A stretch of DNA of 64,000 nt from Escherichia coli (GTDB lineage: Bacteria; Pseudomonadota; Gammaproteobacteria; Enterobacterales; Enterobacteriaceae), in NCBI RefSeq assembly GCF_030013595.1, contig NZ_CP122768.1, one strand, 5' to 3'. How positions within the stretch are numbered: position 1 is the stretch's first letter; the number at the start of each line of letters is the position of its first letter. Shown piece after piece: positions 55,601 through 58,226 of this stretch. The position numbers were made by a program.

Positions 55601-58226
55601 TCAACTGGCGGATAAAATCTCCGCCGTGTTTGTGCCGGTAGTGGTAGTCATTGCGCTGATCAGTGCGGCAATCTGGTATTTCTTTGGTCCGGCACCGCAG
55701 ATTGTCTATACCCTGGTGATTGCCACCACGGTGCTGATTATCGCCTGTCCGTGTGCGCTGGGACTGGCGACGCCGATGTCGATTATTTCGGGCGTCGGGC
55801 GGGCGGCTGAGTTTGGTGTGCTGGTGCGGGACGCCGACGCGCTGCAACGCGCCAGTACGCTCGATACCGTAGTGTTCGATAAAACCGGGACGCTGACCGA
55901 AGGGAAGCCGCAGGTTGTCGCAGTAAAAACATTTGCTGATGTTGATGAAGCGCAAGCATTGCGTCTGGCGGCGGCGCTGGAGCAAGGTTCCAGCCACCCG
56001 CTGGCACGGGCGATCCTCGATAAAGCAGGTGATATGCAGCTACCGCAGGTCAACGGTTTCCGCACATTGCGCGGGCTGGGTGTGAGCGGTGAAGCTGAAG
56101 GTCATGCGGTATTGCTGGGCAATCAGGCGCTGTTAAATGACCAGCAAGTTGATACTAAAGCGATTGAGGCAGATATTTCAGCTCAGGCATCGCAAGGGGC
56201 AACGCCTGTGCTGCTGGCGGTTGACGGGAAAGCGGTGGCCTTGCTGGCAGTACGCGATCCGTTGCGTAGTGATAGCGTGGCGGCGCTGCAACGTCTGCAT
56301 AAAGCGGGATATCGTCTGGTGATGTTGACCGGGGATAACCCAACCACCGCCAATGCGATCGCCAAAGAAGCAGGGATTGATGAGGTGATCGCCGGGGTGC
56401 TGCCGGACGGTAAAGCCGAAGCGATCAAACGTCTGCAGAGTGAAGGACGTCAGGTGGCAATGGTGGGCGACGGCATTAACGACGCGCCAGCGCTGGCTCA
56501 GGCGGATGTCGGAATTGCGATGGGTGGCGGCAGTGATGTTGCCATTGAAACCGCAGCGATTACCCTGATGCGCCATAGCCTGATGGGTGTTGCGGATGCG
56601 CTCGCGATTTCCCGCGCAACGCTGCGCAATATGAAGCAGAACCTGCTCGGTGCGTTTATCTACAACAGTATCGGTATTCCGGTCGCCGCCGGTATTTTGT
56701 GGCCGTTCACTGGAACACTGCTTAACCCGGTGGTTGCCGGAGCGGCAATGGCGCTCTCGTCGATTACCGTAGTGAGTAACGCTAACCGGTTGCTGCGGTT
56801 TAAACCGAAAGAGTGATTGGTATTTACTTAATGCGTTTGTGAGATCCAGTTCTTGTTGCGCTCCTTTTATGAGTCATGCCATATAAAGTGACTGGCGCAG
56901 GGAGCGCGCAGGGGGCGGCCAATCGCCGCCGCCCCCTGCACCCCCGGGCTCTGGCGAACAAAATCGCCGCTGCGCGGTACCCTCAGCTTATCCCTTGCGG
57001 CTACCGGGTCGGGCGCGAGGTAACATCCCTGTAAAACGCGCCCTCAGCCCACATCCATGTGGGCTGCCCCGGCCTTCAGGGAACGCCTCGGCGATTTTGA
57101 CGCCACCAACACCGGTGCAGTCTTTCGTTTCAAAGCAAAAACAATTTTTCGATCATATTTAAGCTACCACTGAACAAGCCTCATAACTCCATTTGCGCCA
57201 TCCCTCCCCGCGCGCTAGCATGATATTTCACAAAGGGAGGTCGTATGGATCTGTTGTACCGGGTAAAAACGCTTTGGGCCGCGCTGCGCGGTAATCATTA
57301 CACCTGGCCTGCCATCGATATCACCCTCCCCGGCAATCGCCATTTTCATCTGATTGGCAGTATTCATATGGGCAGCCACGATATGGCTCCCCTGCCCACC
57401 CGTTTGCTCAAAAAGCTCAAAAACGCCGATGCGCTGATCGTCGAGGCGGATGTTTCCACCAGCGATACGCCTTTTGCTAATTTGCCTGCCTGCGAGGCGC
57501 TGGAAGAGCGCATTAGCGAGGAGCAACTCCAAAACCTGCAGCACATTAGCCAGGAGATGGGCATTTCTACCTCACTCTTTTCTACCCAACCGCTGTGGCA
57601 AATCGCGATGGTTCTTCAGGCGACGCAGGCACAAAAACTGGGGCTGCGGGCAGAATACGGTATCGATTACCAGCTATTGCAGGCGGCGAAGCAACAACAT
57701 AAACCCGTGATTGAACTGGAAGGGGCTGAAAACCAGATTGCCATGTTGCTCCAGCTCCCTGACAACGGACTGGCACTGCTGGACGATACGCTGACCCACT
57801 GGCACACCAATGCACGGTTGCTGCAACAAATGATGAGCTGGTGGCTGAATGCGCCGCCGCAAAATAATGAAATAACGCTGCCTAATACGTTCAGTCAGTC
57901 GCTGTACGATGTGCTGATGCATCAGCGAAATCTCGCCTGGCGGGACAAATTATGCGCCATGCCGCCGGGGCGCTATGTGGTCGCAGTCGGTGCACTACAC
58001 CTGTATGGAGAAGGGAATTTGCCGCAGATGTTGCGTTAAAAAAATGGCCAATATCGCTATTGGCCCGTCAAAGAGGAATTTCATATTTTTATTATTATGC
58101 CGTCACTTTAAGCGACGGTGTAACTCGATTGTCGCTCAATCTCACCATCCTGCCAATACTCTTAGGCAAGATGACTCTTTTTTTGGACCGCCATCAGGCG
58201 TATGCTTGCTTCGTTTTTTTGTTTAA

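What the first reader, a model, noticed from the sequence alone, without database searches (positions are those of the whole stretch)
56890..57100. GC-rich nested-palindrome element between copA and ybaP
About 210 bp that reads as roughly two-thirds GC, with an 11-bp perfect GC hairpin, 17-bp imperfect terminal inverted repeats and internal palindromes. It does not match the REP, ERIC or Box-type repeats I can recall. In K-12 I believe a small HTH gene (ybaQ) occupies this position, and no such ORF exists here. It may be a structured RNA, a miniature inverted-repeat element, or a scar of gene replacement.
Basis: partly seen in the sequence, partly recalled or inferred. Interest (0 to 1): 0.5.

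Follow-up and report, generated by a model that had tools for sequence, protein, structure and literature searches.

The report
Known TRIP1e intergenic repeat copy
The GC-rich palindromic stretch between copA and ybaP is one copy (type TRIP1e) of TRIP1, an already published E. coli intergenic repeat of unknown function, and it sits where most strains carry the small ybaQ gene.

Summary
Window 56890-57100 is 68.7% GC (window 54.3%) and holds a perfect 12-bp GC hairpin, a 16-nt imperfect inverted repeat and a perfect 10-nt palindrome. It is not new. The full element, 56855-57120 (266 bp), aligns end to end with E. coli K-12 TRIP1a (94.0%) and TRIP1c (92.9%). Its position, 38 bp after copA and 124 bp before ybaP, is exactly that published for TRIP1e (Rudd 1999; Li et al. 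2024, PMC10888264).

Of 5426 complete genomes, 346 carry the TRIP1e allele and 4834 carry ybaQ.

My searches add three points.
- Close relatives occur in Klebsiella (about 13 per genome), Citrobacter and Pseudocitrobacter.
- The fold is conserved: 28 of 69 pairs show compensatory changes.
- The 140-nt core resembles the Rfam TwoAYGGAY RNA below threshold (31.5 bits against 43). On the strand antisense to copA it shows two C[ANGGAN]G hairpin loops, the form CsrA prefers.

No promoter, terminator, conserved ORF, consistent orientation or CLIP signal supports a dedicated RNA gene. Function stays unknown. Novelty: already known.

The parts
56855..57120 (.). TRIP1e repeat unit (266 bp, 65.0% GC)
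   Evidence: Gap-free end-to-end alignment to K-12 TRIP1a (NC_000913.3 915016-915281): 94.0% over 266 bp. It is 92.9% identical to TRIP1c and matches TRIP1b in two pieces across its 125-bp deletion. It starts 38 bp after the copA stop and ends 124 bp before the ybaP start, as published for TRIP1e.
56858..56907 (.). Outer hairpin: GCGCTCC (56858-56864) pairs with GGAGCGC (56901-56907). On the minus strand the 3' arm reads AAAGGAGCGC, which is Shine-Dalgarno-like.
   Evidence: Folds. It is helix 14. Three of its 6 pairs show changes on both sides: E. coli and Klebsiella have GCGCTCC/GGAGCGC, Citrobacter has CGTTCAC/GTGAACG.
56908..56939 (.). Perfect 12-bp GC hairpin GCAGGGGGCGGC / GCCGCCCCCTGC with an 8-nt loop
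   Evidence: I4. It is helix 12: 9 of 12 pairs have compensatory changes (Citrobacter has TAAAGGGCG/CGCCCTTTA). No T-run follows on either strand, and no terminator was called.
56959..57099 (-). Inner module of about 141 nt closed by the P1 stem (56959-56974 / 57084-57099). It resembles the TwoAYGGAY RNA on the minus strand.
   Evidence: Rfam RF01731 hit at 56961-57100 (-), 31.5 bits against a gathering score of 43, E = 0.0054, full model length. Hits on the same strand in K-12-type and Citrobacter copies score 30.6 and 28.9 bits. P1 is helices 2-3, with 7 of 13 pairs compensatory.
57045..57066 (-). Hairpin 2. The minus strand reads CAGCCCAC[AUGGAU]GUGGGCUG, an ANGGAN hexaloop.
   Evidence: I8. 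It is helix 7: CCCAC/GUGGG in E. coli, CCCGC/GCGGG in Klebsiella, CCAGC/GCUGG in Citrobacter. The loop CATCCATG is invariant in all 36 sequences.
57011..57043 (-). Hairpin 1. The minus strand reads GGGCGCG..UUACAGGGAUGU..CGCGCCC, loop AGGGAU. It matches 11 of 12 positions of the CsrA SELEX consensus RUACARGGAUGU.
   Evidence: Folds. It is helices 8-9. The consensus is taken from PMC7652899. The GGA is invariant in the alignment.
56975..57006 (-). Hairpin 3. The minus strand reads CGGUAGCC-GCAAGGGAUAAG-CUGAGGGUACCG, a third conserved GGA-containing loop.
   Evidence: fold. CTTAT.CC is invariant across genera.
56948..57072 (.). The 125-bp internal segment missing from short TRIP1 forms (approximate limits). 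It is bounded by the direct repeats CCCCGGGCTCTGGCGAAC (56942-56959) and CCCCGGCCTTCAGGGAAC (57067-57084).
   Evidence: D1, spacing 125. The short form at aqpZ-lysO in L005 joins ..CCCCGG|CCTTC... K-12 TRIP1b matches in two pieces. The paper states a 125-bp internal deletion.
56817..57174 (.). The allele-specific spacer. It shares no homology with the K-12 allele (REPs plus ybaQ). Homology resumes about 70 bp upstream of ybaP.
   Evidence: The last copA codons already differ synonymously: AAAGAGTGA here, AAGGAATAA in K-12.
54312..56816 (+). copA, the upstream gene. Read-through from it would transcribe the UCC-loop strand of the element.
57245..58039 (+). ybaP, the downstream gene

Best explanation
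The element is TRIP1e, the copA-ybaP copy of the TRIP1 family of E. coli intergenic repeats (Rudd 1999; Li et al. 2024).

Shown:
- It is a non-coding unit of 266 bp and 65% GC.
- As a single strand it folds into five hairpins: an outer hairpin, a 12-bp GC hairpin, and a P1-closed module carrying three hairpins. Selection maintains this fold in E. coli, Klebsiella and Citrobacter.
- About 6% of E. coli carry it as one of several alternative alleles of a hypervariable spacer. In other strains that spacer holds a HigB/RelE-like toxin plus ybaQ, an orphan ybaQ with REPs, or deletions.

Inferred:
- At this locus it lies in the 3' flank of copA, with its UCC-loop strand in the sense direction. It probably acts there only as a passive, very stable 3' structure, the role REP units play in the K-12 allele.
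- It also serves as a 266-bp stretch of homology for recombination with the other TRIP1 copies. The literature documents rearrangements of this kind.

Unknown:
- What sequence-specific activity keeps the loops and the fold conserved.
For: Identity:
- 94.0% gap-free alignment over 266 bp to K-12 TRIP1a, and 92.9% to TRIP1c.
- Position, length and GC content equal the published TRIP1e description.

Family size:
- Present in 5425 of 5426 complete E. coli genomes, with a median of 3 places per genome.
- This allele is in 346 genomes; ybaQ is in 4834.

Conserved structure:
- 99.3% of cells are paired.
- 28 of 69 pairs changed on both sides, against 3-6 in the slid controls.
- No shuffle in 500 reached the observed value for percent paired, pairs or cells changed on both sides, or covariation score.
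- Fold z-scores are -5.9 on both strands.

Not a gene:
- No ORF is conserved in frame across subfamilies.
- No promoter-like or terminator-like site was called at the three E. coli copies; the one site called at the Citrobacter copy lies inside the element on the + strand, at the rate seen in shuffles.

Placement:
- Copies sit downstream of genes, in either orientation. The counts were co/anti 11, anti/anti 11, co/co 6 and divergent 1.
- This fits a tolerated or passive 3' element.

Rearrangements between TRIP1 copies are reported in PMC10888264. Contig L019, which joins copA to TRIP1 to the dusC flank, shows one such junction.
Against: A purely passive element does not explain several observations.
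- Three loop sequences are invariant across three genera while the stems covary.
- The core is about 85% identical between E. coli and Klebsiella, unusual for intergenic DNA.
- The core repeatedly hits the TwoAYGGAY model on one strand only.
- Singleton G.U against A.C changes lean 12:4 towards the strand antisense to copA.

No expression data were available, so the role of a 3' structure for copA is inference. I could not fetch the TRIP1e reference record (CP057178.1) for a direct alignment.
Confidence: 0.85

Rival explanations
1. TRIP1 is a functional structured RNA of the TwoAYGGAY class. When the GGA strand (minus strand here) is transcribed, its two C[ANGGAN]G hairpins and a third GGA loop bind CsrA dimers. 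This would titrate CsrA or place the neighbouring transcript under CsrA control.
For: - TwoAYGGAY hits occur only on the GGA strand, at 31.5, 30.6 and 28.9 bits.
- That family was proposed as a CsrA binder (PMC4333381).
- Loops AUGGAU and AGGGAU closed by C-G fit the ANGGAN hexaloop.
- UUACAGGGAUGU matches 11 of 12 positions of the SELEX consensus RUACARGGAUGU.
- The GGA triplets are invariant in 36 copies from 4 genera while the stems covary.
- Singleton G.U changes favour this strand 12:4, binomial p = 0.038.
Against: - The score is below the Rfam gathering threshold of 43 bits.
- No promoter-like or terminator-like site was found that could drive the GGA strand at four copies scanned.
- Here, and at the aqpZ and putP loci in K-12, the GGA strand is antisense to the upstream gene.
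- Orientation relative to neighbours is mixed.
- ybjE and dusC carry no CLIP peak, and no peak coordinates near TRIP1a or TRIP1c appear in the held supplements of the E. coli CsrA CLIP-seq study.
- Hairpin 2 has a 9-bp GC-rich stem. SELEX suggested very stable stems disfavour binding.
Confidence: 0.2
2. The element is a miniature mobile element (MITE-like, or mobilised in trans as single-stranded DNA the way REPs are by RAYT transposases). It inserted between copA and ybaP and displaced ybaQ. The fold is conserved because a transposase recognises it.
For: - It is a multi-copy, genus-specific family whose copies are nearly identical within Klebsiella and within Citrobacter while their flanks differ.
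- Presence or absence is polymorphic at this locus, and opposite orientations occur at the same locus in aqpZ-lysO and dusC-yohP (PMC10888264).
- Conserved loops with covarying stems are what a structure-specific nuclease would require.
Against: - The ends of the unit are not inverted repeats of each other.
- No target-site duplication or clean empty site exists. The short alleles are deletions of the ybaQ allele.
- In E. coli each sequence type is tied to one locus, with 99% of copies at five fixed loci. That argues against recent transposition.
- There is no match in phages, and the plasmid hits examined were chromosome-like records.
Confidence: 0.15
3. It is a selected 3'-end element for copA, a transcription barrier or mRNA stabiliser that functionally replaces the REP/BIME cluster of the K-12 allele.
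For: - It begins 38 bp after the copA stop.
- All five E. coli TRIP1 types lie 38-96 bp downstream of a stop codon.
- Copies in other genera also sit mostly downstream of genes.
- It has very stable GC-rich hairpins.
- K-12 has REPs at the same place.
Against: - No hairpin is followed by a T-run, and no terminator was called.
- This role would not require conserved loop sequences or a 266-nt architecture.
- Orientation varies at the same locus between strains.
Confidence: 0.25
4. It encodes a small protein (the 52-codon ORF at 56876-57034 on the plus strand).
For: The ORF exists. Klebsiella copies have an open frame of at least 79 codons, and one K. aerogenes record annotates an 'uncharacterised protein' there.
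Against: - The frame differs between the E. coli and Klebsiella ORFs.
- K-12 TRIP1a and Citrobacter copies have no such ORF.
- Single-base indels separate the subfamilies.
- Substitutions come in base-paired couples, not in codon patterns.
Confidence: 0.02

Closest known systems
TRIP1 repeats of E. coli (TRIP1a-e; Rudd 1999, Res Microbiol; Li et al. 2024, Genes 15:236, PMC10888264)
   Same: Sequence (94% to TRIP1a), length, GC content, predicted multi-hairpin fold and exact chromosomal position all equal TRIP1e. The element is a member.
   Different: Nothing differs for the element itself. The published work covers E. coli only. It does not report the Klebsiella and Citrobacter relatives, the covariation, the TwoAYGGAY resemblance, or that the TRIP1e allele lacks ybaQ and the REPs.
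TwoAYGGAY RNA motif (Rfam RF01731; Weinberg et al. 2010). Rfam places it in clan CL00106, which I recall, unverified, as the Csr/Rsm clan.
   Same: A long closing stem P1 encloses two adjacent hairpins whose loops carry A-N-G-G-A-Y. The match covers the full model on one strand only.
   Different: - The score is 31.5 bits against a threshold of 43.
- One loop is AGGGAU (R, not Y).
- TRIP1 has a third hairpin inside P1 and two more hairpins outside it.
- The stored part of the original alignment contains none of the six enterobacterial accessions I searched for.
REP/BIME elements
   Same: Both are GC-rich, palindromic, lie downstream of genes and are dispersed. REPs occupy this very site in K-12.
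   Different: There is no sequence similarity. TRIP1 is about 7 times longer than a REP, has 3-10 copies rather than hundreds, and has no known RAYT partner.
CsrB/CsrC-type CsrA-sequestering sRNAs
   Same: GGA motifs are displayed in hairpin loops of the preferred ANGGAN form.
   Different: TRIP1 has only 3 such loops against about 9 to 18. No promoter-like or terminator-like site that could drive the GGA strand was found, and there is no CLIP evidence. It is a dispersed repeat found in both orientations.
RSA repeats of E. coli K-12
   Same: Both are short palindromic intergenic repeats annotated in the original K-12 record.
   Different: RSA is 150/151 bp in 6 copies (PMC5172473). TRIP1 has 3 places in K-12 even at E <= 1. 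I had no RSA sequence, so identity could not be tested. It is probably a different family.

Membership tests
TRIP1 repeat family (type TRIP1e) | Sequence match covering more than 80% of a K-12 TRIP1 copy (the criterion of Li et al. 2024) | tested here: met
   100% coverage with no gaps. 94.0% to TRIP1a (NC_000913.3 915016-915281), 92.9% to TRIP1c, and a two-piece match to TRIP1b.
TRIP1 repeat family (type TRIP1e) | Length 146-273 bp and 62-65% G+C | tested here: met
   266 bp and 65.0% GC. The paper gives 265 bp for TRIP1e.
TRIP1 repeat family (type TRIP1e) | Type-specific locus: 38 bp downstream of the copA stop and 124 bp upstream of the ybaP start | tested here: met
   copA ends at 56816 and the element starts at 56855. 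The element ends at 57120 and ybaP starts at 57245.
TRIP1 repeat family (type TRIP1e) | Very stable predicted RNA fold ('double-Y'; the paper gives an ensemble energy of about -150 kcal/mol for TRIP1e) | tested here: met
   Ensemble energy -148.7 kcal/mol on the minus strand and -139.2 on the plus strand; z = -5.9.
TRIP1 repeat family (type TRIP1e) | Direct identity to the TRIP1e reference CP057178.1 1232542-1232806 | not tested
   The record is not in the collection.
TwoAYGGAY RNA (RF01731) | Score at or above the Rfam gathering threshold (43 bits) | tested here: not met
   31.5 bits, E = 0.0054. 30.6 and 28.9 bits in other copies.
TwoAYGGAY RNA (RF01731) | Two terminal loops containing AYGGAY | tested here: inconclusive
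   One loop is AUGGAU and fits. The other is AGGGAU or AGGGAC, with a purine at position 2.
TwoAYGGAY RNA (RF01731) | A large closing stem P1 | tested here: met
   16-nt arms, 88% complementary. Seven of 13 P1 pairs show compensatory changes.
MITE | Terminal inverted repeats at the ends of the unit | tested here: not met
   No inverted repeat joins the 56855 end to the 57120 end. The 16-nt inverted repeat is internal.
MITE | Target-site duplication next to an otherwise identical empty site | tested here: inconclusive
   No empty site was found. The shortest alleles (L051, L052) are deletions of the ybaQ allele, and the whole spacer is non-homologous.
REP/BIME | Similarity to the REP consensus units present at this site in K-12 | tested here: not met
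   blastn with word size 7 of the K-12 copA-ybaQ spacer against the window spacer gave no hit.
CsrA-binding sRNA (CsrB/CsrC kind) | Several GGA motifs in hairpin loops | tested here: met
   Three conserved GGA loops on the minus strand. Two are C[ANGGAN]G.
CsrA-binding sRNA (CsrB/CsrC kind) | An independent transcription unit (promoter and terminator) | tested here: not met
   No sigma-70-like promoter or intrinsic terminator was found that could serve the GGA strand at four copies. The scans are simple consensus scans.
CsrA-binding sRNA (CsrB/CsrC kind) | CsrA binding in vivo or in vitro | not testable with these tools
   The held supplements of PMC5694010 show no CLIP call for ybjE or dusC and no peak coordinates near TRIP1a or TRIP1c. 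This is weak negative evidence only.
RSA repeats | 150/151-bp unit in 6 copies in K-12 | tested here: not met
   TRIP1 has 3 places in K-12-type genomes. The RSA numbers come from PMC5172473. No RSA sequence was available.

The most novel reading that the evidence does not exclude
The conserved core of TRIP1 is an enterobacterial branch of the TwoAYGGAY RNA class. On its GGA strand, two ANGGAN hexaloops and a third GGA loop are held in place by covarying stems. Transcribed, this strand would bind CsrA. TRIP1 copies in E. coli, Klebsiella and Citrobacter would then be unrecognised CsrA-titrating or CsrA-responsive RNA modules, and the strain-to-strain differences in copy number and orientation would modulate the Csr network.
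Probability: 0.2. Interest if true: 0.65.

Novelty: already known. Interest (0 to 1): 0.25.

Why it matters
For the scan, this finding can be closed. The element has a name (TRIP1e), a publication and a mapped population frequency.

Its residual value lies in the family, not this copy. TRIP1 has had no proposed function since 1999. Here it turns out to be conserved beyond E. coli, with strong compensatory evidence for its fold and with loops of the kind CsrA recognises. That makes a cheap and direct experiment possible: strand-specific expression plus a CsrA gel shift.

The locus also illustrates a hypervariable spacer that swaps a toxin-antitoxin remnant (ybaQ) for a structured repeat.

Tried and rejected
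1. RSA repeats as the name. The literature gives 6 copies of 150/151 bp in K-12, whereas this family has 3 places. No RSA sequence was available, so I dropped it.
2. Literature searches for RSA/BEE95 led nowhere. The search on 'Novel intergenic repeats' plus aqpZ found the TRIP1 paper.
3. K-12 and W3110 RefSeq annotation carries no repeat feature at these sites.
4. Small-ORF reading, including tiny ORFs after the Shine-Dalgarno-like AAAGGAGCGC on the minus strand. These run 3-9 codons, vary between copies and are absent here. No ORF is conserved.
5. Own promoter or terminator. Nothing was found that could drive the GGA strand at four copies. The AT-rich spacer between the divergent Citrobacter elements also gave no promoter-like site.
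6. Strand assignment by G.U against A.C. Counts follow whichever strand was used for prediction (50 and 63). The intersection gives 15:5 cells and 12:4 columns, which is weak.
7. Phage origin: no match.
8. Plasmid hits: the ones I fetched and annotated are chromosomal fragments or mislabelled chromosomes.
9. CsrA CLIP-seq supplements: no signal found.
10. Search for an empty site to define insertion boundaries. Only deletion derivatives of the ybaQ allele turned up.
11. A check of whether the original TwoAYGGAY alignment already contained enterobacterial sequences. None of six accessions appears in the stored part.
12. Scan hits in Lachnospiraceae, Desulfacinum and Sporobacter MAGs. One is a chance match and two are Klebsiella-like contigs.
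Full report
**What is in the sequence**

The window is E. coli: its copA-ybaP spacer is 100% identical to many complete E. coli genomes. copA ends at 56816 and ybaP starts at 57245, both on the plus strand.

The flagged interval 56890-57100 is 68.7% GC, against 54.3% for the window. It contains three palindromic features.
- A perfect 12-nt-arm GC hairpin: 56908-56919 / 56928-56939, with an 8-nt loop.
- A 16-nt, 88% complementary inverted repeat: 56959-56974 / 57084-57099.
- A perfect 10-nt palindrome: 57045-57054 / 57057-57066.

Both strands fold much better than dinucleotide shuffles. 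The minus strand gives -144.3 kcal/mol and the plus strand -135.4 kcal/mol, each with z about -5.9.

**What it is**

The 428-bp spacer is found whole in only 346 of 5426 complete E. coli genomes. Its central 271 bp, however, matches 2-10 other places in 5425 of 5426 genomes at 90-95% identity. Those places are the aqpZ-lysO and dusC-yohP spacers.

A literature search found the name. These are the TRIP1 repeats, described by Rudd in 1999 and surveyed in 6725 genomes by Li et al. 2024 (PMC10888264). That paper defines five locus-specific types. [quoted passage not shown] It is 265 bp long, 94% identical to TRIP1a, and present in 232 of 6725 genomes.

Window 56855-57120 fits this exactly. It is 266 bp and 65.0% GC, starts 38 bp after copA and ends 124 bp before ybaP. 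Its alignments to the K-12 copies are:
- TRIP1a: 94.0%, without gaps.
- TRIP1c: 92.9%.
- TRIP1b: two pieces, across that copy's known 125-bp internal deletion.

The TRIP1e reference record itself was not available.

**The locus**

K-12 has, after copA, a cluster of REP units and then ybaQ on the opposite strand. The window has neither.

ybaQ is present in 4834 of 5426 genomes, and RefSeq annotates it as a HigA-family antitoxin. ATCC 11775 carries it with an adjacent RelE/ParE-family toxin gene. K-12's ybaQ is therefore an orphan antitoxin.

Joining the copA and ybaP flanks as one query shows several spacer lengths.
- TRIP1e allele.
- ybaQ with one to three 101-bp REP steps.
- Longer toxin-antitoxin alleles.
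- Two short alleles. These retain K-12-type ends and are deletions of ybaQ, not empty sites.

The TRIP1e allele shares no sequence with the others from the last copA codons to about 57174. 'Replacement' is thus an allelic description. I found no insertion scar or target duplication.

**Beyond the published account**

Close relatives exist outside E. coli.
- Klebsiella: about 85% identity over window 56893-57115, with 13 places in one 5.37-Mb K. pneumoniae record.
- Citrobacter: about 77% identity.
- An exact-pattern scan of one genome per species returned copies in several Citrobacter species, K. pneumoniae, Escherichia and Pseudocitrobacter.

An alignment of 36 copies gives a consensus of 69 base pairs.
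- 99.3% of cells form standard pairs.
- 28 pairs changed on both sides, against 3-6 in the slid-partner controls.
- No shuffle in 500 reached the observed value for percent paired, pairs or cells changed on both sides, or covariation score.

Examples of compensatory change:
- Hairpin 2: CCCAC/GTGGG in E. coli, CCCGC/GCGGG in Klebsiella, CCAGC/GCTGG in Citrobacter.
- GC hairpin: GCAGGGGGCGGC in E. coli becomes TAAAGGGCG in Citrobacter.
- Outer hairpin: GCGCTCC/GGAGCGC becomes CGTTCAC/GTGAACG.

The loops do not vary. CATCCATG, TCC.TG and CTTAT.CC are invariant. The fold is therefore under selection in a single-stranded form. The related sequences fall into three clades, so the number of independent events is smaller than the cell counts suggest.

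**Resemblance to a known RNA class**

An Rfam scan places the inner module (56961-57100, minus strand) on the full length of the TwoAYGGAY model at 31.5 bits. The threshold is 43 and E = 0.0054. K-12-type and Citrobacter copies hit the same family on the same strand at 30.6 and 28.9 bits.

The shared architecture is a long closing stem around two adjacent hairpins. On that strand the loops read C[AUGGAU]G and C[AGGGAU]G. TwoAYGGAY was proposed to bind CsrA (PMC4333381). The CsrA literature describes the preferred site as a hairpin with an ANGGAN hexaloop, and gives the SELEX consensus RUACARGGAUGU (PMC7652899). TRIP1e has UUACAGGGAUGU, which matches 11 of 12 positions, and CCACAUGGAUGU. A third conserved loop carries AAGGGAUAAG.

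This is a resemblance, not membership. The gathering score is not met and one loop has R instead of Y.

**Why I do not adopt the RNA-gene reading as the main explanation**

- Promoter and terminator scans found nothing that could drive the GGA strand at the window copy, K-12 TRIP1a and TRIP1c, or a Citrobacter copy.
- The GGA strand is antisense to copA here, and antisense to aqpZ and putP in K-12. It is sense only behind dusC.
- Across 37 copies the element lies mostly downstream of genes, with no consistent orientation. Counts were convergent neighbours 11, GGA-sense 11, UCC-sense 6 and divergent 1. The ORF calls behind these counts are crude.
- Li et al. report both orientations at the TRIP1a and TRIP1c loci. 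I saw this too, with flanks that differ between the orientation alleles.
- The held supplements of the E. coli CsrA CLIP-seq study show no call for ybjE or dusC and no peak coordinates near the K-12 copies.
- The G.U against A.C strand test depends on which strand was used for prediction. In helices predicted on both strands it leans 12:4 columns to the GGA strand, p = 0.038. That is weak.
- No ORF is conserved.

**Best reading**

This is TRIP1e, a known, non-coding, structured intergenic repeat. At this site it is one allele of a hypervariable spacer. It would be transcribed in the UCC orientation by read-through from copA, as a very stable 3' structure in the place where K-12 has REPs. It also provides homology for the inter-copy rearrangements documented in the literature. 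Contig L019, which joins the copA flank to the dusC-type flank across the repeat, is such a junction or an assembly chimera.

What keeps the loops and fold conserved across genera is not known. The CsrA-binding reading is the most interesting possibility not excluded (about 0.2). A structure-specific mobilisation mechanism is another (about 0.15). However, the ends are not inverted repeats, and in E. coli 99% of copies sit at five fixed loci.

**Verdict**

Novelty: already known. Interest is low for this copy. It is moderate only for the family-level lead, namely cross-genus covariation plus TwoAYGGAY-like and CsrA-type loops, which the published work on TRIP1 does not mention.

Noticed in passing
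L053 3249-3928 (E. coli ATCC 11775, copA-ybaP spacer); L001 5219-5560 (K-12 ybaQ): ybaQ is annotated as a HigA-family antitoxin. In ATCC 11775 it sits next to a RelE/ParE-family toxin gene, so the K-12 ybaQ is an orphan antitoxin. The copA-ybaP spacer has at least five allele classes: toxin-antitoxin pair, ybaQ with 1-3 REP steps, two ybaQ-deleted short forms, and TRIP1e.
   Followed up: partly
L011 1891-2600 and 15 other Citrobacter loci (alignment): In Citrobacter the TRIP1-like element is followed by an AT-rich spacer of about 60 bp and then a second, paralogous element in inverted orientation. That element has loops AGGGAU/AGGGAC and the same GGTCCGGCTGAAAAT...ATTTTCCCGCCGGGAGCC ends. The whole composite of about 700 bp is repeated at many loci. 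No promoter-like site was called in the spacer.
   Followed up: partly
L009 1520-1790 and 1957-2227; Klebsiella alignment: Most Klebsiella copies are followed, about 50 bp away, by a REP-like sequence (GGCCGGGTAAGGCGCAGCCGCCACCCGGC). One locus (pcaC to the mechanosensitive channel gene) has two tandem copies 437 bp apart. An association between TRIP1-like elements and REPs may be worth testing.
   Followed up: no
L006 vs L008 (dusC-yohP); L002 vs L005/L023 (aqpZ-lysO): The same spacer carries the element in opposite orientations in different strains. The roughly 60 bp on either side also differ between the orientation alleles, so these are not simple recent in-place inversions. One aqpZ-lysO allele (L005) is a short form with the 125-bp internal deletion.
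   Followed up: partly
L019 (2790-bp MAG contig JAFAEO010000008.1): The left flank is identical to the window's copA side and the right flank to the dusC-side flank of a TRIP1c allele. This is either the copA/yohI TRIP1e/1c rearrangement type reported once by Li et al. 2024, or an assembly chimera across the repeat.
   Followed up: no
E. coli genome search, (e.g. NZ_CP134663.1): Some complete E. coli genomes have up to 10 TRIP1 places, twice the maximum of five reported in the 2024 survey. The extra loci were not identified.
   Followed up: no
window 58038-58121 (-), 3607-3673 (-), 16695-16783 (-), 63800-63877 (-): Rfam gathering-level hits elsewhere in the window: sroB (the ChiX sRNA, abutting the ybaP stop), STnc480, AgrB and naRNA4 (REP-derived).
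   Followed up: no
L004 3283-3320 (K-12 TRIP1a, top strand) and equivalents: On the GGA strand the element ends in a Shine-Dalgarno-like AAAGGAGCGC that is paired with an upstream GCGCTCC. In several E. coli copies an ATG follows 6-9 nt later and opens a tiny ORF of 3-9 codons (for example MMNQHITTS in K-12). The ORFs are not conserved, and the window copy has none.
   Followed up: partly
PLSDB hits (CP125156.1, NZ_CP134663.1, NZ_CP141089.1, NZ_OL790696.1): Several records in the plasmid collection are 4.8-5.4 Mb chromosomes labelled as plasmids. Smaller 'plasmids' carrying aqpZ-lysO (NZ_CP148399.1, NZ_CP148327.1) look like chromosomal fragments from single-cell assemblies.
   Followed up: no
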